From positions 1 through 55,813 of IMG/VR virus record IMGVR_UViG_3300042691_025398: a stretch of DNA of 55,813 bases. One strand, written 5' to 3'. How positions within the stretch are numbered: position 1 is the stretch's first letter; each line of letters begins with the position of its first letter. Source of the DNA: a virus. Taxonomy: Duplodnaviria > Heunggongvirae > Uroviricota > Caudoviricetes. A program made the position numbers and the translations under genes. The notes under the pieces are model-generated. The model did no database searches. It saw only the letters and a list, made by a program, of their open reading frames with translations, and had not been told where the DNA came from. Shown one piece after another: positions 3,001-16,234 of the stretch.

Positions 3001-4798
3001 CTGACCAACCAAATCTACCAGCAGAGATAAAATTACCTGCATTAACATTGCCTATCACATTGCCACTGCCAGTGACTGCAAGAGTTCCTATGTTGGCAAT
3101 ACCAGTGGTTGTGAGATTACCACCAGTGATATTACCACCCGCATTGACCACTCCACTGGTGCTGAGATTGTTGCCAATCACATTGGCATTGGCAATTAGG
3201 TTACCTGCCAGTTCAAGGTTACCAATACCACTTAGTCGTGCTATCTCAGTGGTGTTGCCATACCACTTGAATCCTTGAGATTCAAGATTGGTATCCACTC
3301 CCATCCAAATTGCACTGCTTTCAACACCAATGGCATAATTGGTTTTTGAGTTATTGTTGAAATCGTAAAGTGTAACACGTTCACTATTATAATTTCCAGG
3401 AGCTGGAGCACCTAGGTTAGTGCTTGTACTACGAAGTCTTGGTGAATTTACGTTACCTGTGGCAGTGACCTGACCAGTGGTGTTCAAATTAGCAGCTGAA
3501 ACATTACCTGAAACAGAAACTGCATTGGTGCTTTGATCAAATGTAAATGCTGCGCTGCCGTTTAGATTGTCGTTGTCATTGAATTGAACCTGTGTGTTAG
3601 CACCACCAGCATCAATGTTACCAATGAAACGATTAGCTGAAACATTGCCTGTAAAAGATCCTGTGTTACCAGATACAATATTACCAGCAGATAAATTGTT
3701 ACCGGATACATTGCCCGTAGCAGACACCTGTCCTGCGGTGGTTAAATTACCGCCAGTCACATTGCCTGTTGCGGTTACCACTCCGGTTGTGGTTAAATTA
3801 CCACCGTTGACATTACTGGTAGCATCCACACGACCAGTAGTGGTAAGATTGCCGCCACTGACGTTACTGGTAGCACTTAAAGTGCCTGTAATGTCCATAC
3901 CGCCAGAACTGATCACTAGAACATTGGCTGTGCCGCCCACATTGGCAGCAAGATTGCCGCCAGCAGTGGTCACTCTAAGATTACTGGTACCATTGGAAAT
4001 CAAGGTTGTGTCAATGCCGGTTAAGAATGCACCGTTACCTAAAACATAAGATCCAGAAACGTTGCCTGTGGCCAACACGTTACTTGATACGATTATATTA
4101 GCTGCATTGATATTTGCTGATGCTGTTACAAACTGTGCAGAAAGATTGCCAAGAGTGACATTACCAAAATTATTAACAGTTACAATTTCATTTACAATGC
4201 TTACATCAGTAGCTAACAACAGGTTAGCAGCTGAGTTGTCATAGCCTATGAATGCTGACTTTTCACTGCTGGTATAATAATACAGTTGCTCACCGCGATC
4301 CTTGCCATCGTTCATGGTCAACGGAGCATTGTTGGCGCCTCGACCAAGACTGATCAGTGGATCCTCAATGGTGAGATTTTCAACATTGATATAAACAAGA
4401 TTGCCGTTAACTGACAAGTTGCCTGTGACTAAAGCATCACCACCAACTGTAAAAGTTGATGTTGCTTTGTCAAACGTCAATGCAGTGTTGCCAGCTACAA
4501 TACCTGCATCATTGAATAGAATCTGTGTGTTTGATCCTGGCGCTGTAATATTACCAGATATGTTACCAACAAAATTTGCAGCGGTTACATTGCCAGAAAA
4601 AGCGGCTGTGGTCAAAGTCAGTGAGTTAGCCCAGACTCTATTGCCGTTGCTCTGTATTACTAGAACACTGTTGGCAACACCATTGCCAAGATTTGGTTCT
4701 GCCTGCCCTAAAGACAGATATTGATACCGGTCCGCTGACAGTTGATCAAGAGGAACTACTGGAACGCGGCCGCTTAATAGTTTTGGTCCATTTGCCAT
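1..4798 (-). CDS. Long tail fibre / virion appendage protein, 3'-truncated by the window edge (>=1599 aa)
   Basis: Manual translation from ATG 4798 (MANGPKLLSGRVPVV...) is in frame with the window start (...DIIFSTGGANT). It is absent from the ORF track because no stop lies in the window. G/N/T-rich with many TGNVTGGNLTT-type repeats and PGxNTQxxFND modules typical of phage fibres. Confidence 0.85.
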   Translation of the reverse strand, partial: MANGPKLLSGRVPVVPLDQLSADRYQYLSLGQAEPNLGNGVANSVLVIQSNGNRVWANSLTLTTAAFSGNVTAANFVGNISGNITAPGSNTQILFNDAGIVAGNTALTFDKATSTFTVGGDALVTGNLSVNGNLVYINVENLTIEDPLISLGRGANNAPLTMNDGKDRGEQLYYYTSSEKSAFIGYDNSAANLLLATDVSIVNEIVTVNNFGNVTLGNLSAQFVTASANINAANIIVSSNVLATGNVSGSYVLGNGAFLTGIDTTLISNGTSNLRVTTAGGNLAANVGGTANVLVISSGGMDITGTLSATSNVSGGNLTTTGRVDATSNVNGGNLTTTGVVTATGNVTGGNLTTAGQVSATGNVSGNNLSAGNIVSGNTGSFTGNVSANRFIGNIDAGGANTQVQFNDNDNLNGSAAFTFDQSTNAVSVSGNVSAANLNTTGQVTATGNVNSPRLRSTSTNLGAPAPGNYNSERVTLYDFNNNSKTNYAIGVESSAIWMGVDTNLESQGFKWYGNTTEIARLSGIGNLELAGNLIANANVIGNNLSTSGVVNAGGNITGGNLTTTGIANIGTLAVTGSGNVIGNVNAGNFISAGRFGWSGTGSNSRITNDGSISLVPDTTYDATAGILIGGSGYVLGPNGSRNLTLNYNNENGVAGAYRIGVVGNQVQAITNYGSNTVGTIGNSTTYFGNAYVSNIWTGIVQAANITSSGNIAGNFVAPGANRQMLFNDNGLISSNALLTFDRAGPTLSLNTATATIITGFVSSLGGSDLALTPATSNLVIWASANPRFSNTYSLGTSTFQWRNVWAGNGNIATLGVTTLSVTGNISAGNVTTAGIGNIGTLEVTGTATITGNVTGGNLATAGVLNVNGNVTGGNITSNAVVTAVGNVTGGNLITSGLINATGNVSGGNLTTAGQVVATANITGGNLITSGLINATGNVNGGNISTTGVINATGNVTGGNVVSNAAVTAVGNVSGGNISTVGIIQATGNISSNANVIGANLATAGNVYGNHLIAAANVEVLGNKITSGTTTGIEFEAGNVSLISGNLIVDGNYIYSQNGDTAIALVNNGEIGSIGIYNNLQVGKDGQGNLDVAGYANVTNNLTVGGNATVTGNITGGNLNTGNQVVATGNITGGNIVTSGQITSTGNINTTANVVAANVVSANIGSAGDITVSTLANGNINLNPNGAGNVVLASDTYINNVRYPVQDKDAASKIYVDNFASTGITYHSPVFAATVSNLATATGGTISYAQPNGVANGIGATISTTGSFNLIDTANIQTVGTRLLVKDEGNAVLNGVYTWSNATTIVRSTDADEYGSNSAEQISLNDYFFVQNGNVNKGTAYVVNGPPGVITFGTSNITFAEFSSSQTYTAGNGIDITGTVISARVDNNTTAFNGTGEIIVKAGANLTTPNIGAATGTSLSLTGNLVANNIAANAYLSAVTIDATGNITGGNIISNGAASITGNASAGNLSIANFANVSGNMHATGNVHIGQDISFSAAYANFQYAGTANSYLQLVAQNKDNGSAASTDFVATADNGTDADTYIDMGINSSGYTDPVFGLQKANDGYLYVAGNTTTGGGNLVLSTLENNDIIFSTGGANT
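1850..2340 (-). repeat. Imperfect tandem coding repeats (~12 aa, xTGN(V/I)xGGN(L/I)xT) within the fibre gene
   Basis: Recurring ccaccagtgacattgcc / ttaccaccggtgacattgcc-like units; similar runs near 1380-1480, 3050-3180 and 3700-3900. Confidence 0.8.
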
Positions 4799-8972: not shown

Positions 8973-10018
8973 TATGTTTCCAACTGTAAAACTGTCATGG
9001 TCACTGTGATTGATGCCACTCCACCACTTAAATTGGTAATAGCTACAGGCACAGTGTTAGAAACTGGGTTGTCATCATTAAAGCCCACTGCTCCGGGGCT
9101 TACTATAACTGTGTTTGCACCGGTGGTGATGATTTCTGCAATCACGCCCGCGCCAGGTTGTGGATCTACGTCTTGAGTTCTTGTGGCGTCTGCGCTACGT
9201 GCTGCACTACTAGTGTATACTCTTACCCAACTGGCTGCTGAAGTTGTGATTTTATAAATCGCATAACCTTTGTACCCAGTGAGATCTGAATTGATACTCA
9301 CTGCGTTTGACAAAGGACCCACTGTGGTAGTGATGTTTGCACGATTGCCTGCGCCACCGCCACCGCCTGTGACCACACCAGTGAGAAATGCGCCGTTGCC
9401 AAGAATAAATGTGCCACTTACATTGCCTGTGGCATTCACATTACCAACATTTATATTGCCAGTGTGAGTTGCTGATCCTGTGGTGTTGATGTTGCCAGCA
9501 GTGATATTTCCTGTGATTGTGGCTGTGGTTAGTGCAGCATTTGATGCCAACAAAGTTGTAGTGGAAACATAAGGAGAGATCACAGAGTTTCCAGCATCCA
9601 CATTCTGTACTGTGAGCTGACTTGGAGTTAAACTGGCTGCCCCCACTGCTACCTGTGTGCTTGCATTTACCAAACTGGCGTTTACAGTGGTGACATTGGC
9701 ACTGCCAGCTGCCGTGATATTACCGCCTACAGAAAGATCTGTTCCAATTGTGCCAGATTGACTGGCAATTACATGTGCGCCTTGAACATTACCAGTAGCA
9801 GTGATGTTCCCGCCTGAACTGATTCTACCCGCAAAAGTCTGTTGTCCTGTGCCAGTTGCGTTTAGGTTACCTGTGATGTTAACTGTTATACCATCTATGA
9901 TATTGGTAACTGTGGTACCCACACGATTCCATGCACCAGTGGTACTGTTCCATTGATAGGTTATGTTGCCTACATTGGCCTGTTGGCCGTTTATTGGACT
10001 AGTAGGGAAAAATGCCAT
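8972..10018 (-). CDS. Short fibre-like virion protein
   Basis: FPTSPINGQ...YQWNSTTGAW N-terminal module, G/N/T repeats and GNGAFLTG motif; TAATG overlaps with both neighbours. Confidence 0.75.
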   Translation of the reverse strand: MAFFPTSPINGQQANVGNITYQWNSTTGAWNRVGTTVTNIIDGITVNITGNLNATGTGQQTFAGRISSGGNITATGNVQGAHVIASQSGTIGTDLSVGGNITAAGSANVTTVNASLVNASTQVAVGAASLTPSQLTVQNVDAGNSVISPYVSTTTLLASNAALTTATITGNITAGNINTTGSATHTGNINVGNVNATGNVSGTFILGNGAFLTGVVTGGGGGAGNRANITTTVGPLSNAVSINSDLTGYKGYAIYKITTSAASWVRVYTSSAARSADATRTQDVDPQPGAGVIAEIITTGANTVIVSPGAVGFNDDNPVSNTVPVAITNLSGGVASITVTMTVLQLET

Positions 10019-11388
10019 TAGAATCTCCCCACTGCTATGGTGATATCTTGAATTGAATTGTCGTTAATTGTCATCATGCTTTTGCCTAGTACACAACCTG
10101 GTCTATAAAGACTGTCATTTACTCTTTCAGCTACACCTGGCTCATCACTAGTTGTGAGTAATGTGCCTTTACTTACTGGGCCGCGTACACGGCAGGTGAC
10201 TTTACCAGTTAGAGCAACTGCCACACCGTCTACTCCTGAATTCATCAAATAACTGGGTTTTTCGCTAACCACACCTGCCACTGAGGTGTCGTGTGTGCGT
10301 TTACTGATTGTGATCTCATGATCACCACCAAAGATCACCACTGTGCCAGGCGCATACTTTTCATCTGATGTGTAGTTTTCTGCAAGGTCAGCATACAGTG
10401 CCGATGTTGAAGTTGCAAACACTCGATTGAAATACGTGCTTGATGATCCAATGTTTCCAACGCCATTGGAATTTAGATTTAAAATATTCCCAACCAACAG
10501 TCCTTGACTGGTGATTTGCGCGATGGTAGCACTGTTTACATTGGCAATGATACAACCACTGGCAAATGGAATACTCACTTGCGATAAACCATTGATAATA
10601 GTACTGGGATTGGTACTGATGCCGGTCAAAAGTGAACCATTACCAACAAAATAGGTAGCAGCCACGTTGGCTGCTGCATTTAAATTGGTCACTGTAACAG
10701 TGTTAGCAGTGAAAGAACCATTTACATCTCGTTGCACCACAGTGTTTGCTAGAGTGCTTGCGGATGCTGGTGGAGTTGCCACACCACTCATGTCCACCCA
10801 CTGATCGCTGTCTCCATCATCTACATATTGATAAAGAATACCGTTAACTGTGTTGAACCAAAAGTCGCCTGATGTGGGAGACAAAGGCGCTGTGGATTGT
10901 GCATCCCATTTCACAGTACCGCCACTTACAAAAGGCACACCATTGGCAAAATAATAGTTGTCAGTGAGAATATTGCCTGGTGATATGTTGCCTGGTAGTA
11001 TAGCACCGCTTGTGGTCAACAGCATGACATTGGCCACGCCACCTACATTGATCTCCACATTACCTGAAAGATTAGGGATGTCTACCCTTGACGTACCGTT
11101 TTGAATTCTGTTTGCAGCAGCATTACCTGCTGGAATATTGGTTAGACCTGATCCGTCTCCAATAAACACACCAGTGGTAATAAAGTTACCCACACTAGTA
11201 ATGGTGTTACTGGTTATGTTATTGGCACTGATGTTCGCAGTTGGAAAACTAACTGTACCAGAAGCAGTGAGTCCGTTGGTGCTGATATTTCCTGTGACGT
11301 TAACTGTGTTGGTTGTGATATTGACGTTGTCCGACGCCTGTACGGAGACAATATTATAGTTACCGTTGACACGTTTGTAAGTTGCCAT
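10018..11388 (-). CDS. Fibre/spike protein with C-terminal intramolecular-chaperone (peptidase G2-like autocleavage) domain
   Basis: C-terminal YADLAENY...PGTVV...VAGVVS...YLMN...VALTGKV...KGTLL motif. Confidence 0.75.
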   Translation of the reverse strand: MATYKRVNGNYNIVSVQASDNVNITTNTVNVTGNISTNGLTASGTVSFPTANISANNITSNTITSVGNFITTGVFIGDGSGLTNIPAGNAAANRIQNGTSRVDIPNLSGNVEINVGGVANVMLLTTSGAILPGNISPGNILTDNYYFANGVPFVSGGTVKWDAQSTAPLSPTSGDFWFNTVNGILYQYVDDGDSDQWVDMSGVATPPASASTLANTVVQRDVNGSFTANTVTVTNLNAAANVAATYFVGNGSLLTGISTNPSTIINGLSQVSIPFASGCIIANVNSATIAQITSQGLLVGNILNLNSNGVGNIGSSSTYFNRVFATSTSALYADLAENYTSDEKYAPGTVVIFGGDHEITISKRTHDTSVAGVVSEKPSYLMNSGVDGVAVALTGKVTCRVRGPVSKGTLLTTSDEPGVAERVNDSLYRPGCVLGKSMMTINDNSIQDITIAVGRF

Positions 11389-11976
11389 CTACGCTTCCTT
11401 TTGCTTATTTATGCGGGCTAGAAACGCGGACATCTCCAGATGTTCTAGATTGGGCAGAATGTCCAGCTCCGAGTGTTTCATAGTGGTTTCTCCGTACACT
11501 CGAATCCACTTTACATCTGGAAAATCCTTGATTGCAGTGCTCAGCTGTTTGATCCAGTTGCCAGTGAACGTGGGCGGGGTTCCCCGAGCTTTGTAAAATT
11601 CTGTGCCAGCGTACACATTGTTAAACTGCCCTGAATTGTCTGGACCCAGATCATAACCCAATAAAAACACACGGGTGTGCCCATCCAGTGCAGCCAGAGC
11701 CGCAGCCACTGGACCAGAACTGTTACCATAGTATTTTTTTGGTATCTGTCGGGCGCCAGAATTTGGATGGCATCTTCTGGTGTAAAACACACGGCGCTGA
11801 CTGTATCCTGAATCCTGAATTCTCCCGCTTATGGGAGCATCTGTGGCCACAAGCACATCTGGCTCAAAATCTTTATATAGAGAATTACATCCATAGATTT
11901 TACCATAGTGATGTAACCAGGCAAGATCAAGTGCTTGCCTGCTGATACCATTGGCCAAACAAAAAGCTGTAGTCAT
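11389..11976 (-). CDS. Rossmann-like nucleotide-sugar enzyme (GT29/DUF115-like), 195 aa; ends in TAG
   Basis: AFCLANGISR, IYGCNSLYKDFEPDVLVATD, NSSGPVAAALA and VFLLGYDL motifs. Confidence 0.6.
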   Translation of the reverse strand: MTTAFCLANGISRQALDLAWLHHYGKIYGCNSLYKDFEPDVLVATDAPISGRIQDSGYSQRRVFYTRRCHPNSGARQIPKKYYGNSSGPVAAALAALDGHTRVFLLGYDLGPDNSGQFNNVYAGTEFYKARGTPPTFTGNWIKQLSTAIKDFPDVKWIRVYGETTMKHSELDILPNLEHLEMSAFLARINKQKEA

Positions 11977-12029: not shown

Positions 12030-12776
12030 TTAGCTAGTCCACTTTTCCAGTTGTGCAATGGTTGTTGTGGTCTGCGCTGTACCACTCTTGATCACAGTGC
12101 CTTCGTCAGTGAAGAAGTTGGTTACGTATCGGTTATCAGCAACCACGCTGGCATAAGAATAATCGTTACCACCTGCCCAGTCCTGAATCCACTTGTTGGT
12201 GAGTTTGCTTGCGTAAATCAGTGAGCTGTCGCCAACTGCAAAACCCACTGCCATGTAACCAGCAGCTGGAGTTGCATCATTATCCAGCACACAGACACCA
12301 ACTTCTTGGCAGGTACCCGAAGTGCCTGCACCGGCTGCCGTAGTGACTTGGAAAATTGTACCAACTGCTGCGCCTACTGGTGCACCCATTGCTACCCAAT
12401 TGGTATCGCCCACGGCGACAATACGCACGCTAACACCAACCACTGCGTTTGCAGGGTCAATGGCAGTGTTGGTTGCTACCAAGAACTTGTGTGAGCCTTT
12501 TTGACGCAAAATTACACCGTCGTCAGATCCGGTAAAACTGTTTGTAATGTTTACAATACACTTGACCACTGGGTTAGTAGCAGAAGTTGCTGTAGACCGC
12601 ACACCACCTACGACGCCTAGATAATCATTGGCGCTGAGTGTTTCTGGATTGGTGTTGTAAACTGGATCAGTTAGCGATCCAAAATTTGGAAAACCAACAT
12701 CAATGCCTACTGCTGCACCTGGCGATCCAATACCTGAATTAGTTGAATATTTTTGAATTTTGAGAGGACGTCCCAT
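12030..12776 (-). CDS. Putative virion structural protein (248 aa)
   Basis: ORF track; strong AAGGAG SD; late promoter upstream; follows the head module. Confidence 0.75.
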   Translation of the reverse strand: MGRPLKIQKYSTNSGIGSPGAAVGIDVGFPNFGSLTDPVYNTNPETLSANDYLGVVGGVRSTATSATNPVVKCIVNITNSFTGSDDGVILRQKGSHKFLVATNTAIDPANAVVGVSVRIVAVGDTNWVAMGAPVGAAVGTIFQVTTAAGAGTSGTCQEVGVCVLDNDATPAAGYMAVGFAVGDSSLIYASKLTNKWIQDWAGGNDYSYASVVADNRYVTNFFTDEGTVIKSGTAQTTTTIAQLEKWTS

Positions 12777-12861
12777 TTGTTTTCTCCTTAAAGAAGTCCG
12801 ATGTGGGTTCTAGCCACTACGCGGCGGGTTAGACCGCATAAAACGCACTGTGCGTTACGAG

Positions 12862-12884: not shown

Positions 12885-12913
12885 TTGACCTACGCATATA
12901 ATTCTGGCATAAT
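12885..12913 (+). promoter_or_regulatory. Sigma70-type promoter for the tRNA cassette
   Basis: TTGACC (12885-12890), 17-nt spacer, CATAAT (12908-12913); tRNA begins at 12922. Confidence 0.7.
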
Positions 12914-12921
12914 TACTGTAT

Positions 12922-12997
12922 GCGCTGGTAGCTAAGTGGAACAGCAGGAGCCTCTAAAACTCCAGATACGTGGGTTCGATCCCCACCTAGCGCACCA
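12922..12997 (+). tRNA. Amber-suppressor tRNA, anticodon CUA, encoded CCA
   Basis: Acceptor GCGCTGG/CTAGCGC, D arm GCT/AGC with GG, anticodon arm GGAGC-CTCTAAA-ACTCC (C31.A39 mismatch), T arm GTGGG-TTCGATC-CCCAC, A73, CCA. Anticodon at 12954-12956. Confidence 0.92.
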
Positions 12998-13119
12998 TAA
13001 TAACAAAGCCGGACCCGTAACCATATTCCGGCTCCGCTGACGCGAAAACGGGATGGGCTGCGCTCACGGGGTTTGACGGTTTCCTGACACATGAATAACC
13101 GTCATTTAAGGAAACTGTT

Positions 13120-13293
13120 ATGCGGTACCTAATGGTTCTTTTTTTAATAGTAGGATGTTCTAGCAAATATGATGACTGCGTAGAACAACAAAAAGAGTCG
13201 TATAGACAACGAAATCCTGGTGCTTCATATGGGTTAATAAACTCCAAGTACAGAGATTTTGAAGCAGCATGTTCTAATTTCAAAGGAAAATAA
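13120..13293 (+). CDS. Small lipoprotein (57 aa), missed by the ORF track
   Basis: MRYLMVLFLIVG-CSSKYDDCVEQQKESYRQRNPGASYGLINSKYRDFEAACSNFKGK; hydrophobic signal with IVGC lipobox; AAGGA SD at 13108-13112. Confidence 0.75.
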   Translation: MRYLMVLFLIVGCSSKYDDCVEQQKESYRQRNPGASYGLINSKYRDFEAACSNFKGK

Positions 13294-13294
13294 A

Positions 13295-13864
13295 ATGTTA
13301 TAGATTGAATACGCATGTAAGGATCTAGTGTTTCACTTTAACAAGAAACATCTAGAAGACGAATCAATTCCAATGTGGGTCGTAAAAACACACGGTGAAA
13401 CTTTTTACGTAGACCACGTCACTGCATCTCTTCCTTGGAGTACAAAGGAGACTCCGGGCAACTCCCATACCAAAGGCAGTATCAAGTTCAAAGAATGCCT
13501 GCTGACCATTAACTCTGACAATGAAGCTACTATTGCATCATTATCAACGGTTGACAAGATCAGATTACGTAATCAAAAGCTAGGTATCACTCGAGTTATC
13601 TTTAACTATGGTGGCAAGTTTCACGAAGCATTAAAGCAAAACGAATACAAGCACAGTCCATTCAAAAATGTTTCTGGTGGATGTGGTACTAGTTTTGTTG
13701 TGTGTGACCTTTTGAAAAAGGAAGAAGCCAGTTTTGCTGCTTTGAAATATCCAAACGGTTTTAGAATCATGTCAGCAAATGAAGCCTACTATAAAGCTTA
13801 TGATGCGCCGGGAACTTACATTGACGAAGATGATTATCCAGATATTGACGATGATGATGAATAA
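13295..13864 (+). CDS. Hypothetical protein, probably starting at ATG 13295 with an in-frame TAG at codon 3 (alternative start GTG 13328)
   Basis: ATG TTA TAG ATT GAA TAC GCA TGT AAG GAT CTA GTG TTT is in frame with the 178-aa ORF. AAGGA SD lies 7 nt before ATG 13295; the SD for GTG 13328 is only 4 nt away. Acidic C-terminal tail. Confidence 0.7.
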
Positions 13865-13869
13865 TCAAC

Positions 13870-13893
13870 AAAAAAGGGCCTTGCGGCCCTTTA
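13870..13893 (-). terminator. Rho-independent terminator after the capsid gene, possibly bidirectional
   Basis: Minus strand AAAGGGCC-GCAA-GGCCCTTTTTTT; lies between convergent genes. Confidence 0.85.
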
Positions 13894-13917: not shown

Positions 13918-15129
13918 TTAGGAGAACGACAGGTTCGAAACAGCGATCTCACCCAGATAGTCAGCTGCGTTACCGAAGCTGCTTGCTGTGTTAGTAAGCT
14001 CGATGTAGCCATAACGTGTCATGAACGACACGACTGGTTCAAAGGTTGTCGGATCCAGCACAACACCAGAACTCATTAGAGGAATATATGGGCAGTAGAA
14101 CGCGGCTGCATCAGCCTCGCTTGAACCCTTATAACCAACTAGAACTGCTTGGCTATCGCTAGCATAGCTGTCCACGAACACACGCATTGCGCCGTTCAGA
14201 GTACCAACAAACTTGGTGTTGGTAGGTGCTTCAAATGTGCCTTCAGTTGTACGTGCAAATGCTGAAGTTGTTGCTGATTGCAGCACAGTCAACGATGCAG
14301 GTGATACAACAGCCCAGTTACCAGCGCCACGACGTGTACGCTGAGCGATCAAGTTAGCTGTACGGTTGATCAGCACAGCAAGAGCTGCGTGTTCATCACC
14401 AACGAATGTAGCTGTACCTGATACAGTTGCCTGGTTGTAAGTGAACTCAGTTGCAGCCAAAGTGCGCAGGCTCAACAGAATTTCTTGATCAATTTCAGCA
14501 GTGATTTCTTGAGCCAGTGCGGCCATGATTTCTGCTTCAACGTCAATACCATGCATTGCTTGTGCATCTTGTGCAGCTTCAAAAGTCCAGCGAGCTTGTA
14601 GCTTACGAGTCTTTGCTTCAACTGCTTGCTTCAAGATCTGAACGCTGATGTTACGACCACCAGAACCTTCAAGAACCGAAGTGTCAGCACCAGTGTAACG
14701 TGTCTGGCTAGCAGCAGGTACACCAGCACTTACTGTGCTTGCCGAAGAGTATGCAGTTGCAATCTTGAACGGGCTCAGTGCTTCTTCACCAGCGATGGTA
14801 GAAGTGTTAGCAGCTGAAGTGTCGTTCATGGTGCTTGCATAACGCACACGCAGAGTGTGGATTTGACCAACTGGACCGGTCATTGGCTGAACACCAACCA
14901 GTTCGTTAGCAATAACTGTTGGCATCACACGACGGATAACCGGCAGAATGACACGATTCAGTGTTGCAACGTTACCAGCAGCAGTGCTACCACCAGTTGC
15001 ATTTTCTTTCAGATACTTACGGGTATTTTCTAAGATAACACCCATTGTGCTGCGACGTGAACCTTTAAGGCCTTCCATTAGGGCTTCTTTGGTTTCGTCC
15101 CAGCGGTTTTCGAGTAATTGCTCTGACAT
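13918..15129 (-). CDS. gp23: Major capsid protein, T4 gp23 family (403 aa from MSEQLL)
   Basis: LIRRVMPTVIANELVGVQPMTGPVGQIHTLRVRY-like, TRKLQARWTFEAAQD, YCPYIPL and FMTRYG motifs; AAGGAG SD before ATG 15129. Confidence 0.96.
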   Translation of the reverse strand: MSEQLLENRWDETKEALMEGLKGSRRSTMGVILENTRKYLKENATGGSTAAGNVATLNRVILPVIRRVMPTVIANELVGVQPMTGPVGQIHTLRVRYASTMNDTSAANTSTIAGEEALSPFKIATAYSSASTVSAGVPAASQTRYTGADTSVLEGSGGRNISVQILKQAVEAKTRKLQARWTFEAAQDAQAMHGIDVEAEIMAALAQEITAEIDQEILLSLRTLAATEFTYNQATVSGTATFVGDEHAALAVLINRTANLIAQRTRRGAGNWAVVSPASLTVLQSATTSAFARTTEGTFEAPTNTKFVGTLNGAMRVFVDSYASDSQAVLVGYKGSSEADAAAFYCPYIPLMSSGVVLDPTTFEPVVSFMTRYGYIELTNTASSFGNAADYLGEIAVSNLSFS

Positions 15130-15145
15130 TATAGTCTCCTTTTGC

Positions 15146-16234
15146 TTATAATCCTGCCAATCTCTTGATGTCAATCACATTGCTGCGATCTTCATCTTGT
15201 TGAGGCAAGGTAGTTTTATCCCCAGTCACTTCGCTAATCGATTCTGTAATCACTTTAGAGGCTTTTACAGAACGGTTCTCGAGCACCGCTGGTAGATATT
15301 TTTCAAAAGCGTTTTTCAGACGAGTCGTCTGTACGCTTTCAAGAAGATTGCGCATGACATCCTGCTTCTCTTTGTTGAGAGGAGCTAACAAGTCGGCCAT
15401 AACGCTGGCACGTTCATTGTTTTCACGAATCATACGAATCTCTCGTTCTTTGCTTTCCACAACCACACGAGCATGCTCGGCTACTTGTATAGCCTTGGCT
15501 AACTTGGCATTTTTATCTGCAACCAATGCAGTGAGCTTGCGCACTTCTACATTTTCATTGAGATGAGTCGCACTGAATTCTGTAGCGTATGCTTCAAAAA
15601 TGCGACGGCCAAAGTTGTTTTCTCGTGCAACTTGGATATCTTCACGTAGCTGGTTTAATTCAGCCTTGAGATGCTTGGCAACTGCTTGACCCATTTTTTG
15701 CGCACTTTCTTTAACAAAGCGAGCTTTTAATGTTTCCAGCTTTTCACGGGCATCACGCACCAAACGCACTTGGGTTTCTACAACCTTTTGTTTGTCTTGT
15801 GCAAATTCCATGATCTCTTCTGCAAGAGCTCTTACCACAAAGGTTTCTAATTTTTCTAGTCCTTGGTTGTGAGCCTTGCGGTCACGGCGCACTTCTGCGA
15901 TTTCTTCGGCTAATTTCTTCACCATAAAGTCGTTGAACTTAGTGGCGCTTTCTGTCATTTTAGCCTGGAACTTCACACGATCTTCAGCTAGTTGGCGCTT
16001 TTCACCTGCCACTGCTTCAATCTCTGCGCTTAGACCTTCGGTTACCATGCGATCTATGGCCTCTACCATCACGTTTTTATCGTGTTGATAACGTTGTGCA
16101 AACTCTTCGCGGAGTTCTGCACGTACCTGTTCACGAGCTTCATTCAGCTTGTTTTCCCAAGCTTCATTGATCTCGCGACTAACGTCTTCGTTAATCAGGC
16201 CGCTATCTAGTAATGGTTTGATGGCATCTAACAT
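15146..16234 (-). CDS. gp22: Prohead core scaffold protein (gp22-like)
   Basis: Coiled-coil, E/K-rich protein between the protease and capsid genes; starts MLDAIKPLLDSGLINED. Confidence 0.85.
   Translation of the reverse strand: MLDAIKPLLDSGLINEDVSREINEAWENKLNEAREQVRAELREEFAQRYQHDKNVMVEAIDRMVTEGLSAEIEAVAGEKRQLAEDRVKFQAKMTESATKFNDFMVKKLAEEIAEVRRDRKAHNQGLEKLETFVVRALAEEIMEFAQDKQKVVETQVRLVRDAREKLETLKARFVKESAQKMGQAVAKHLKAELNQLREDIQVARENNFGRRIFEAYATEFSATHLNENVEVRKLTALVADKNAKLAKAIQVAEHARVVVESKEREIRMIRENNERASVMADLLAPLNKEKQDVMRNLLESVQTTRLKNAFEKYLPAVLENRSVKASKVITESISEVTGDKTTLPQQDEDRSNVIDIKRLAGL

What the first reader, a model, noticed from the sequence alone, without database searches (positions are those of the whole stretch)
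12885..13864. Amber-gated cassette: suppressor tRNA(CUA) co-transcribed with a gene carrying TAG at codon 3
Seen: a sigma70 promoter, a CUA-anticodon tRNA, a lipoprotein and a 189-codon ORF form a small plus-strand unit inside minus-strand late genes. The last ORF has its best-spaced SD (AAGGA, 7 nt) at ATG 13295, but reads ATG TTA TAG ATT GAA TAC GCA TGT AAG GAT CTA GTG..., in frame with the 178-aa body. Other long genes in the window carry no in-frame TAG, so the phage is not code-15 recoded. Inference: full-length expression depends on the cassette's own suppressor, giving a tRNA-gated switch or dosage limiter, or an early step toward recoding. From memory of similar phage proteins the xIEYACKD(L/V)VFHFNK N-terminus looks conserved; this is unverified.
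Basis: partly seen in the sequence, partly recalled or inferred. Interest (0 to 1): 0.88.

Follow-up and report, generated by a model that had tools for sequence, protein, structure and literature searches.

The report
Stop-codon-gated phage gene with own tRNA
A large freshwater T4-like phage that otherwise uses the normal genetic code keeps a UAG stop as the third codon of one conserved gene, next to its own UAG-reading tRNA. More than 100 related phages, one of them cultured, keep the same pairing, so the protein is very probably made only when that tRNA overrides the stop.

Summary
tRNA(CUA) lies at 12922-12997, and ATG 13295 - TTA - TAG 13301 runs in frame into the 178-codon body.

- **Conservation of the TAG:** It sits at the same place in all 83 close relatives and in 52 of 68 more distant ones, including cultured Rhizobium phage RHph_I1_18.
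- **Database 'Q':** The Q at this position in database proteins is a code-15 gene-calling artefact, not a sense codon.
- **Coding across the gate:** The nine codons after the TAG are conserved as amino acids with synonymous changes. The alternative GTG start exists in only 27 of 54 unique sequences.
- **Not an assembly error:** Contigs from three independent DNA studies keep the TAG.
- **tRNA co-occurrence:** Every TAG-bearing record with enough sequence, except one 75%-complete record, holds a covarying tRNA(CUA), usually just behind a sigma70-type promoter.
- **Standard code elsewhere:** TAG ends 14% of the genome's ORFs.

New here:
- In a distant clade the same ATG-x-TAG-ATT gate sits on a PTH2 peptidyl-tRNA hydrolase gene directly upstream of a TAG-less homologue.
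- One relative lost the gene, and its tRNA anticodon became CUG.
- A covarying ~95-nt leader RNA without an Rfam match lies inside the cassette.

Protein function and the inserted amino acid remain unknown, and nothing is experimental. This scan found the same circuit before on other genomes. I found no published description.

The parts
12885..12913 (+). sigma70-type promoter (TTGACC-17-CATAAT, TG-extended); its -10 ends 8 nt before the first base of the tRNA
   Evidence: Consensus scan, 10 of 12 matches. The same TTGAC-17-TATAAT layout ends 7-9 nt before G1 of the tRNA in most of 45 unique relatives.
12922..12997 (+). tRNA with anticodon CUA (amber suppressor), discriminator A73, encoded CCA, C31.A39 mismatch
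   Evidence: ARAGORN; Rfam RF00005 54.4 bits. In 45 unique relatives the loop YUCUAAM is invariant, and 17 of 20 cloverleaf pairs show compensatory changes, matched by 0 of 500 shuffles.
13008..13105 (+). conserved structured leader RNA: three hairpins and a loop-loop pairing; the loop of the third hairpin (UUUCCU) can alternatively pair with the SD of the next ORF
   Evidence: Alignments and folds. 94.8% of cells are paired, and 13 pairs have changes on both sides, matched by 0 of 500 shuffles. No Rfam match at E<=1. 75 IMG/VR loci carry the invariant core.
13120..13293 (+). 57-aa lipoprotein-like ORF (signal peptide, lipobox IVGC); an optional insert between leader and gated gene
   Evidence: ORF list. 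Homologues with the lipobox occur in a subset of relatives only. No Pfam or PHROG family.
13283..13287 (+). Shine-Dalgarno AAGGA, 7 nt before ATG 13295
   Evidence: Sequence. AAGGAA at this spacing recurs before the upstream ATG in relatives.
13295..13864 (+). amber-gated gene: 189 codons including the TAG; two-domain protein of unknown function (beta-rich FHFNK domain 1-82, alpha/beta domain 85-177, acidic tail)
   Evidence: Translation. More than 1000 homologues. AF2 model with pLDDT 85.7, where strand 1 starts at residue 4 directly after the TAG position. No Pfam, PHROG or PDB family.
13301..13303 (+). in-frame UAG (codon 3), followed by AUU
   Evidence: TAG 54/54 unique sequences, +4 = A 54/54. 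Unchanged in contigs of three DNA studies.
13873..13892 (.). G+C-rich hairpin between the convergent gated gene and the gp23 capsid gene; probable bidirectional terminator
   Evidence: Terminator scan, called on the - strand. On the + strand a weaker T-rich tail follows.

Best explanation
The cassette is a suppressor-tRNA-dependent ('amber-gated') gene.

**Proposed sequence of events.**
1. A sigma70-type promoter starts transcription 0-2 nt before the tRNA(CUA). Its use early in infection is inferred.
2. In this window the same transcript continues through a structured leader, a small lipoprotein gene and the gated gene.
3. Ribosomes start at ATG 13295 behind a well-spaced SD and meet UAG at codon 3.
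4. Without charged tRNA(CUA), RF1 releases a dipeptide and no functional protein is made. There is no usable start codon downstream in half of the family.
5. With the phage tRNA, UAG is read as an amino acid, possibly Gln (identity not established), and the full 189-residue protein is made.

**Consequence.** Output therefore depends on the product of mRNA and active suppressor tRNA.

**What is shown.**
- The TAG and the tRNA are under purifying selection and co-occur.
- The peptide after the TAG is coding.
- The genome otherwise uses TAG as a stop.

**What is inferred.**
- The tRNA is expressed, charged and reads this UAG.
- The gate serves regulation, as a delay or dosage filter, or as a read-out of suppressor charge against RF1.
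- The protein belongs to tRNA or peptidyl-tRNA metabolism.
For: **The TAG is conserved.**
- It lies 9-11 codons before FHFNK in 83/83 close relatives and in 52/68 distant ones.
- The cultured phage RHph_I1_18 has it too. There the 82-aa ORF is unannotated and the tRNA(CUA) lies 12 nt downstream.

**The region after the TAG is coding.**
- Codons +1 to +9 keep I-E-Y/F-A-C-K/R-D-V/L-V through many synonymous changes.
- The 'GTG start' is GTG in 27/54 unique sequences, and GTC or GTT in the rest.
- An in-frame ATG with an SD always lies 2-11 codons upstream.

**It is not an artefact.**
- Database 'Q' is 'with_TAG=Q'.
- Three independent DNA studies keep the TAG.

**The tRNA(CUA) accompanies the gene.**
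- It was found in 67 loci by ARAGORN, 5 more by a covariance model, and 3 more 3-8.5 kb away in the whole records.
- Its cloverleaf covaries and it has its own promoter.

**The gate recurs on an unrelated gene.** The same gate, ATG-x(1-3)-TAG-ATT/GTA, sits on a PTH2 gene (Pfam 33 bits against a cut-off of 23). In each of the 17 loci of that clade that gene lies 35-190 nt behind a tRNA(CUA) and is followed by a TAG-less FHFNK homologue; the gate itself was confirmed in 16 of them.

**Natural co-loss.** Contig L113 keeps promoter, tRNA, leader and lipoprotein but lacks the gene. Its tRNA has four changes, all in the anticodon arm, giving anticodon CUG.

**The code is otherwise standard.**
Against: - **No experiment.** Expression, charging, the inserted residue and readthrough are all unobserved.
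- **Cost of a strong suppressor.** TAG ends 23 of 169 ORFs of this genome, with no excess of back-up stops behind them. A strong suppressor should therefore be costly, which argues for weak, context-bound or short-lived suppression.
- **The tRNA has other uses or persists without this target.** It is also present in genomes whose homologue lacks the TAG:
  - Phosso, 270 kb away;
  - the records of L207 and L228, 7-8 kb away.
- **Adjacency is frequent, not universal.** The distance reaches 100 kb in one complete genome.
- **One TAG-bearing record without the tRNA.** No tRNA(CUA) was recovered in L179's 75%-complete record.
- **Co-loss rests on one contig.**
- **The purpose of a gate is unexplained.** The protein's function is unknown.
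Confidence: 0.75

Rival explanations
1. **Frozen accident or lock-in.** Once a suppressor tRNA was present for another reason, a sense-to-TAG change near a tolerant N-terminus became neutral and was simply inherited. On this view the TAG is a sense codon with no regulatory role, or an early step toward code 15.
For: - Residue 3 lies before the first strand of the fold, so probably any residue is tolerated.
- The tRNA(CUA) also occurs in genomes whose homologue has no TAG.
- Borges et al. propose suppressor acquisition before recoding (10.1101/2021.08.26.457843).
Against: - A neutral TAG is one step from eight sense codons. Neighbouring synonymous sites are saturated (GCT/GCA/GCG, AAA/AAG/AGA/CGN), yet the TAG is kept in 54/54 unique sequences and across about 60% protein identity.
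- The same gate, with the same TAG-ATT context and the same place near codon 3, recurs on a non-homologous gene, PTH2.
- No spread of TAG to other genes is seen, and TAG remains a normal terminator.
- G+C is 44%, not low.
Confidence: 0.12
2. **Mini-ORF with termination-reinitiation.** ATG-x-TAG is a two-codon leader ORF, and ribosomes that terminate at UAG restart at the adjacent AUU without any tRNA(CUA). The neighbouring tRNA would be coincidental.
For: - The codon after the TAG is ATT, ATC or ATA in the 54 unique close relatives, and AUU can serve as a weak bacterial start (established for infC).
- Adjacency makes the frame automatic.
Against: - The model does not explain why the stop is always TAG when TAA and TGA end 86% of the ORFs.
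- It does not explain the linkage with a tRNA(CUA).
- The next codon is AAC in RHph_I1_18 and GTA in three PTH2-type loci. Neither is a start codon.
- ATA and ATC are very poor starts.
- The upstream part varies from 2 to 11 codons, which is unlike a fixed start-stop element.
Confidence: 0.06
3. **Dedicated coding of a special residue.** The tRNA(CUA)/UAG pair inserts a non-canonical or otherwise unencodable amino acid at one fixed position, as pyrrolysine does in methylamine methyltransferases.
For: - There is one positionally fixed UAG per gene family and a dedicated, adjacent tRNA(CUA).
- Some tRNA variants have an odd 3-nt D-loop that ARAGORN misses.
- The 31-39 mismatch is kept in 35/45 sequences.
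Against: - No class II (tRNA-synt_2d, the PylS type) or class Ic synthetase is found in this record or in a 93%-complete relative.
- The position lies outside the predicted fold.
- Two relatives put the start ATG exactly there.
- The same gate occurs at the N-terminus of an unrelated enzyme, ahead of its Pfam domain.
- The tRNA is otherwise a canonical cloverleaf.
Confidence: 0.04
4. **Artefact or pseudogene.** The TAG is a sequencing or assembly error, or the gene is dead.
For: None beyond the presence of a stop in frame.
Against: - Contigs of three independent studies keep it.
- More than 130 loci share it.
- The body is under strong purifying selection, with 47 invariant columns in 61 sequences.
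Confidence: 0.01

Closest known systems
Stop-codon-recoded phages with phage-encoded suppressor tRNAs (TAG read as Gln, 'code 15'; crAss-like, Lak and other gut phages; Borges et al., bioRxiv 10.1101/2021.08.26.457843)
   Same: A phage-encoded tRNA(CUA) in a standard-code host. In-frame TAG is proposed to make the expression of certain genes depend on the suppressor.
   Different: - Here there is one TAG at one fixed position of one gene, not many TAGs spread over late and lysis genes.
- TAG stays an ordinary terminator (14% of ORFs).
- G+C is 44%.
- The gated gene lies in a sigma70-promoter unit on the strand opposite to the late genes.
- The phages are freshwater and soil T4-like phages, not gut phages.
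prfB (RF2) autoregulation through an early in-frame UGA (established textbook case)
   Same: An in-frame stop early in the ORF makes the output depend on the competition between a release factor and an alternative decoding event.
   Different: - prfB escapes by a +1 frameshift, and its product is the factor that reads the stop.
- Here the escape is in-frame reading by a dedicated tRNA.
- A feedback of the product on suppression is only a hypothesis.
Pyrrolysine system (pylT tRNA(CUA) and one in-frame UAG in mtmB/mtbB/mttB)
   Same: A dedicated tRNA(CUA) and a single, positionally conserved UAG in a gene family, with the genes linked.
   Different: - No PylS-like synthetase or biosynthesis genes were found.
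- The tRNA is a canonical cloverleaf.
- The UAG lies in the N-terminal tail, not in the active site.
Amber-gated PTH2-like genes beside tRNA(CUA) in large phages
   Same: The same gate architecture (ATG, 1-3 codons, TAG, ATT) and the same kind of tRNA with its own promoter.
   Different: - The gated gene is different and non-homologous (hhalign probability 0.2).
- New here: in that clade a TAG-less homologue of this window's gene is the next gene of the operon.
- In Atu_ph07 and Phosso, PTH2 and the homologue are two genes apart. The two gated families therefore belong to one module.
Theta (HDV-like) ribozymes next to phage tRNAs (Kienbeck et al. 2024, PMC10879173), compared only with the leader RNA at 13008-13105
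   Same: A small structured RNA often found just after the 3' end of phage tRNAs, suppressor tRNAs among them.
   Different: - The element starts 4-10 nt after an encoded CCA, or directly after a promoter with no tRNA. It is not within +/-5 nt of a CCA-less tRNA.
- The fold supported here is three hairpins with a loop-loop contact.
- There is no Rfam HDV match.
- Self-cleavage is untested.

Membership tests
tRNA (Rfam RF00005) | Cloverleaf scoring above the family's gathering score | tested here: met
   54.4 bits against 29. 93.5% of cells are paired, and 17/20 pairs show compensatory change in 45 relatives.
Amber suppressor tRNA | Anticodon CUA in a 7-nt loop with U33 and a purine at 37 | tested here: met
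   C32 U33 C34 U35 A36 A37 A38. The loop is invariant in 45 unique relatives.
Amber suppressor tRNA | Is aminoacylated and reads UAG on the ribosome | not testable with these tools
   No RNA or proteomic data. Identity is unresolved: A73 and G1-C72 are not Gln-like, while a CUG-anticodon derivative in L113 hints at Gln.
Code-15 (TAG-recoded) phage | In-frame TAG in many genes, so that genes fragment under code 11 | tested here: not met
   Coding density is 87-92% under code 11. Every other ORF extended across a TAG has a normal ATG with an SD after the TAG and none before it.
Code-15 (TAG-recoded) phage | TAG not used, or strongly depleted, as a terminator | tested here: not met
   23 of 169 ORFs of at least 100 aa end in TAG.
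Code-15 (TAG-recoded) phage | Phage-encoded suppressor tRNA(CUA) | tested here: met
Pyrrolysine-type dedicated coding | Dedicated synthetase (PylS, class II core) encoded with the tRNA | tested here: not met
   PF01409 and PF00749 give no match in this record (55% complete) or in a 93%-complete relative, and the controls ring. Other synthetase classes were not searched.
Pyrrolysine-type dedicated coding | UAG at a functionally critical, fixed residue | tested here: inconclusive
   The position is fixed relative to strand 1, but it lies in the N-terminal tail of the model. It is replaced by the start Met in L207 and L228.
prfB-type autoregulation | The product acts on the decoding of its own in-frame stop | not testable with these tools
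   The function of the protein is unknown. The only lead is its operon link with PTH2 and a Pnkp-like gene.
PTH2 peptidyl-tRNA hydrolase (PF01981), for the window's protein | Match to the family profile | tested here: not met
   No Pfam hit. hhalign against gated PTH2 sequences gives probability 0.2. No PTH2 is found anywhere in this record or in three relatives' records.
Theta/HDV-like ribozyme, for the leader RNA | Cleavage site within +/-5 nt of a tRNA 3' end, and a nested double pseudoknot with a catalytic C in J4/2 | tested here: inconclusive
   The spacing is 4-10 nt after CCA, or the element is promoter-proximal without a tRNA. The supported fold differs. There is no Rfam ribozyme match at E<=1. 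Cleavage is untestable here.

The most novel reading that the evidence does not exclude
The cassette is a self-contained sensor of translational state, built like prfB.
- The UAG at codon 3, in a fixed UAG-AUU context, measures the ratio of charged phage suppressor tRNA to host RF1.
- That ratio sets the level of a small tRNA or peptidyl-tRNA-handling module: the FHFNK protein here, and PTH2 plus an FHFNK protein in other phages.
- The module in turn acts on the suppressor or on dropped-off peptidyl-tRNA, closing a feedback loop that keeps suppression within a tolerable window while TAG remains a normal terminator.
- The covarying promoter-proximal leader RNA adds a second input.
Probability: 0.2. 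Interest if true: 0.9.

Novelty: new variant of a known kind. Interest (0 to 1): 0.78.

Why it matters
- **A target for orphan suppressor tRNAs.** Suppressor tRNAs in standard-code phages have had no known target. Here is a specific, deeply conserved one.
- **A natural one-codon switch.** The output of one gene is tied to one tRNA, which is what synthetic biologists build with amber codons. It has a fixed sequence context (SD, ATG, 1-10 codons, UAG AUU) that could be reused.
- **Two gated families form one module.** This links two gene families that the scan had found gated separately, the FHFNK protein and PTH2, into one tRNA-related module. That narrows the search for its function.
- **Annotation errors.**
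  - Code-11 callers truncate the gene or miss it (unannotated in RHph_I1_18).
  - Code-15 callers print a spurious Q.
  - ARAGORN misses tRNA(CUA) variants with a 3-nt D-loop.
- **Testable now.** A cultured, non-pathogenic system (RHph_I1_18 on Rhizobium phaseoli) makes direct tests possible.

Tried and rejected
**Function of the protein**
- Pfam and PHROGs gave no family.
- A profile search of PDB sequences gave nothing below E 0.39.
- Foldseek against PDB gave no match at E<=0.001.
- AFDB clusters gave only unnamed proteins of about 80 aa for the N-domain.
- VIA wide search reached Z<=5.3, on generic ferredoxin-like (ACT/RRM) folds for residues 85-176.
The code-11 ORF gave only weak PAS-like leads at 0.79 or below.

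**Relation to PTH2**
- The C-domain is not related to PTH2.
- It is not found as a separate ORF in short-form loci.

**Other targets and genome-wide effects**
- Other gated genes in this genome: all 19 other candidates have an ordinary ATG with an SD after the TAG.
- Gated genes next to distant tRNA(CUA) copies: none convincing.
- Back-up stops behind TAG-terminated ORFs: no excess (35%, against 31-37% for TAA and TGA).

**Synthetases**
- No tRNA-synt_2d or tRNA-synt_1c in two records.

**Expression**
- No RNA holder is listed for the gene. One lake metatranscriptome contig covers only 13019-13128, the leader.

**Phage collection and literature**
- DNA search of the phage collection found only tRNA-level similarity.
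- Three literature searches found no description of a conserved single-TAG gate with its own tRNA.

**tRNA identity**
- Similarity of the tRNA to the phage's 28 other tRNAs gave no identity (best 0.73, to a class II tRNA-Leu).
Full report
**What is in the window.**
- The window is the first 55.8 kb of a 192-kb IMG/VR virus record.
- It is a T4-like phage. The ORF at 13918-15174 (-) is a Gp23 major capsid protein, Pfam E 8e-99.
- At 12885-13892 a small plus-strand unit lies between minus-strand genes. Its parts, in order:
  - a sigma70-type promoter (TTGACC-17-CATAAT);
  - tRNA(CUA) at 12922-12997;
  - a conserved non-coding stretch;
  - a 57-aa lipoprotein-like ORF at 13120-13293;
  - one base later, ATG 13295, TTA, TAG 13301-13303 and then ATT GAA TAC GCA TGT AAG GAT CTA GTG 13328, in frame with the 178-codon ORF that ends at 13864;
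  - a hairpin at 13873-13892.
- The SD AAGGA lies 7 nt before ATG 13295. The SD-like AAGGA before GTG 13328 is only 4 nt away.

**The TAG is a conserved feature, not an accident.**
- A protein search with the TAG read through found more than 1000 homologues.
- The full-length homologues begin M-[SA]-Q-I-E-Y-A-C-K-D. That looked like a sense Gln, but the encoding contigs translate to these proteins only 'with_TAG=Q'. The Q is a product of code-15 gene calling.
- Of 250 confirmed relatives in IMG/VR, the best 80 were fetched. All of those with the FHFNK anchor have TAG 10 (rarely 11) codons before it, with an in-frame ATG 2-11 codons further up.
- Adding the window, two NCBI metagenome contigs and one cultured phage gives 83 of 83.
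- Among 54 unique sequences:
  - the stop is TAG in 54;
  - the next base is A in 54;
  - the next codon is ATT in 49, ATC in 4 and ATA in 1;
  - the following eight codons keep their amino acids through abundant synonymous change (TAT/TAC, GCT/GCA/GCG, TGT/TGC, AAA/AAG/AGA/CGN, GAT/GAC);
  - the codon that is GTG in this window is GTC or GTT in 27 of the 54.
- So the code-11 start is not available in half of the family. The stretch between TAG and it is translated, and in the AlphaFold model it forms the first beta-strand (residues 4-15).
- Contigs of three independent DNA studies laid on the region show no other letter at 13301-13303. At 13299 the majority has C, which gives TCA, as in most relatives.

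**The tRNA.**
- ARAGORN finds a tRNA(CUA) on the same strand within 3 kb in 67 loci. It usually lies 17-310 nt upstream of the gene's ATG, and in three cases 12-50 nt downstream.
- The 45 unique sequences share G1-C72, C2-G71, A73, an encoded CCA and the loop YUCUAAM. Their stems change freely in a compensatory way: 17 of 20 pairs, 93.5% of cells paired, matched by 0 of 500 shuffles. Slid controls give 34-44%.
- A covariance model built from them recovered five more copies that ARAGORN had missed because their D-loop has three bases.
- It also found copies 3.1, 3.7 and 8.5 kb away in the whole records of three further loci.
- Of the first set, only contigs of about 11 kb, or loci with cut flanks, remain without one.
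- Most copies sit 7-9 nt behind the -10 box of a TTGAC-17-TATAAT promoter, so the primary transcript starts at or next to the mature 5' end.
- The amino acid cannot be named.
  - The acceptor end is unlike the phage's own tRNA-Gln.
  - The nearest bodies in the genome's cluster of 28 tRNAs are Leu-type at 0.69-0.73 identity.
  - A CUG derivative, described below, hints at Gln.

**The genome is not recoded.**
- Under code 11, ORFs of at least 100 aa cover 87% of the 192 kb. 86 end in TAA, 60 in TGA and 23 in TAG.
- All other long frames that can be extended across a TAG have an ordinary ATG with an SD just after the TAG and nothing convincing before it.
- TAG-terminated ORFs have no excess of nearby back-up stops. 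That is an argument that suppression is weak, context-bound or brief.

**Wider family, and what is new here.**
- **Cultured example.** Rhizobium phage RHph_I1_18 (MN988519) has an unannotated 82-codon version, ATG AGT GAG TTC ATG TAG AAC GAA..., containing the N-domain only. A tRNA(CUA) begins 12 nt after its stop.
- **Distant relatives.** Using that version as query gave 74 further loci.
  - 52 of the 68 with the anchor carry the TAG at the same place, in long and short forms.
  - Two long forms (L207, L228) have the start ATG exactly at the TAG position.
  - 13 belong to a distant clade of short forms without a TAG.
- **PTH2 clade.**
  - The gene directly upstream in that clade is a PTH2 peptidyl-tRNA hydrolase (Pfam 33-34 bits against a cut-off of 23).
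  - It begins ATG-x-TAG-ATT, ATG-x-TAG-GTA or ATG-x-x-x-TAG-ATT.
  - It lies 35-190 nt behind a tRNA(CUA) in all 17 loci of the clade (four further loci that lacked the FHFNK anchor share this layout); the gate itself was confirmed in 16.
  - So the same gate occurs on two non-homologous genes (hhalign probability 0.2) that are operon partners.
- **Jumbo rhizobiophages.**
  - In Atu_ph07 and Phosso the domain is the C-terminal half of a 173-176-aa protein without a TAG.
  - It lies two genes after a PTH2 gene and directly before a kinase-metallophosphatase (Pnkp-like) gene.
  - Atu_ph07 has only an opal suppressor (PMC6102473).
  - Phosso has a tRNA(CUA) 270 kb away.
- **Absence of PTH2 here.** This window's genome and three relatives' records, one of them 93% complete, have no PTH2.
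- **Possible co-loss.**
  - Contig L113 keeps the promoter, tRNA, leader and lipoprotein gene, but has no homologue of the gated gene anywhere in its 5.6 kb.
  - Its tRNA differs from that of a near relative by four changes, all in the anticodon arm.
  - Those changes turn CUA into CUG and close the 31-39 and 27-43 pairs.
  - This is a single case, but it is what co-dependence predicts.
- **Limits.**
  - The records of L207 and L228 (no TAG) still hold a tRNA(CUA) 7-8 kb away.
  - In one complete 385-kb genome the tRNA is 100 kb from the gated gene.
  - In L179's 75%-complete record none was recovered.
  - The gene needs the tRNA, but the tRNA is not only for this gene.

**Mechanism and rivals.**
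- The best reading is in-frame decoding of UAG by the phage tRNA, so that the full protein appears only when that tRNA is present and charged.
- Termination-reinitiation at the adjacent codon would also keep the frame, but it fails on three points.
  - It cannot explain the exclusive use of TAG.
  - It cannot explain the link with a CUA tRNA.
  - It cannot explain AAC or GTA after the TAG.
- A neutral, inherited TAG is hard to square with three observations.
  - The TAG is retained where neighbouring synonymous sites are saturated.
  - It recurs at the same relative place on PTH2.
  - It has not spread to other genes.
- A special amino acid is unlikely.
  - No PylS-type or Glx-type synthetase was found.
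  - The site lies outside the fold.
  - It is replaceable by the initiator Met.
- What the gate is for is inference. There are two ideas.
  - *Delay or dosage filter.* With tRNA and mRNA made from one promoter, output would rise with the product of the two.
  - *Feedback.* Given the PTH2 and Pnkp company, the gate may report suppressor charge against RF1 to a module that handles tRNA or peptidyl-tRNA.
- From memory, amber suppression in E. coli is favoured by a purine, especially A, after the UAG (Bossi 1983; Miller and Albertini 1983). The invariant A fits, but I did not check those papers.

**A second element inside the coordinates.**
- Positions 13008-13105 hold a structured RNA.
  - *Hairpin 1:* GCCGGA/UCCGGC, with five of six pairs covarying.
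  - *Hairpin 2:* nearly invariant, with one covarying pair.
  - *Loop-loop pairing:* CCYG with CRGG, which covaries.
  - *Hairpin 3:* six of six pairs covary. Its conserved loop, UUCCUGACACAA, can alternatively pair with the SD of the next ORF.
  - *Support:*. In one search, 94.8% of cells are paired, matched by 0 of 500 shuffles.
- It has no Rfam match at E<=1.
- It stands out as a depth peak in metagenome contigs, and one metatranscriptome contig covers it.
- Its invariant core occurs in 75 IMG/VR loci.
  - Only about a third of them precede the gated gene or the lipoprotein gene.
  - The others precede diverse genes, or follow other tRNAs by 4-10 nt.
  - Some follow a promoter directly.
- It is thus a general leader of these phages' promoter-proximal units, not a part specific to the gate.
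- Theta ribozymes (PMC10879173) are the nearest published analogue by position, but the spacing and the fold differ.

**Standing.**
- This scan has found the gated FHFNK gene and the gated PTH2 gene before on other genomes.
- I re-derived both independently here. I add the operon link between them, the co-loss case, the TAG-less alleles, the read-level check and the leader RNA.
- My three literature searches found no description of this circuit.
- The nearest published concept is recoding as a regulator in gut phages.
- Nothing here is experimental.

Noticed in passing
window 13008-13105 (+): A covarying, roughly 95-nt structured RNA with three hairpins and a loop-loop contact, and no Rfam match. 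Its invariant core is found in 75 IMG/VR loci. It often lies 4-10 nt after the CCA of various phage tRNAs or directly behind sigma70-type promoters, ahead of diverse genes (Hsp20-like, RpoZ-like, metallophosphatase, P-loop kinase, tRNAs). The loop of hairpin 3 can pair with the next SD.
   Followed up: partly
window 12774-12857 (-): A freshwater-2 RNA motif (RF02980, 75.8 bits against a cut-off of 49.9) forms the 5' leader of the 248-aa ORF 12030-12776 (-), which has no Pfam or PHROG family. It is divergent from the tRNA promoter, only 28 nt away.
   Followed up: no
L113 (IMGVR_UViG_3300042402_002481), tRNA at 3815-3887 (-): A relative with the same promoter-tRNA-leader-lipoprotein synteny lacks the gated gene. 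Its tRNA has anticodon CUG instead of CUA, through four changes confined to the anticodon arm.
   Followed up: partly
window 10018-11976 (-): ORF 11389-11976 ends in TAG, followed at once and in frame by the ATG of the 456-codon ORF 10018-11388 (context GCG TAG ATG, +4 = A). Amber readthrough would fuse the two proteins. Conservation of this junction was not checked.
   Followed up: no
G000:C1:102749-115781 (outside the window); L083:30-398: The same phage record carries a cluster of 28 tRNAs and a permuted (two-piece) tmRNA. In another relative a permuted tmRNA lies directly upstream of the gated gene. Two tRNAs with Leu anticodons (UAG, CAA) are only 77-78 nt long and lack the long variable arm.
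   Followed up: no
L002:2625-2697, L003:2623-2695, L020:2888-2962, L064:2831-2905: These tRNA(CUA) variants have a D-arm of a 4-bp stem and a 3-nt loop, without G18G19. ARAGORN does not call them, but a covariance model finds them at 68-78 bits.
   Followed up: partly
L172:1577-2872 (Sinorhizobium phage Phosso, PV764938 446807-448102): A 1.3-kb unannotated stretch lies directly after Phosso's tRNA(CUA). It has no convincing ORF even with TAG read through, so it is possibly a large non-coding RNA.
   Followed up: no
L084:2477-2725 (Rhizobium phage RHph_I1_18, MN988519 about 11000-11248, - strand): The 82-codon amber-gated homologue is not annotated in the GenBank record. The tRNA next to it is labelled tRNA-Pyl.
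   Followed up: yes
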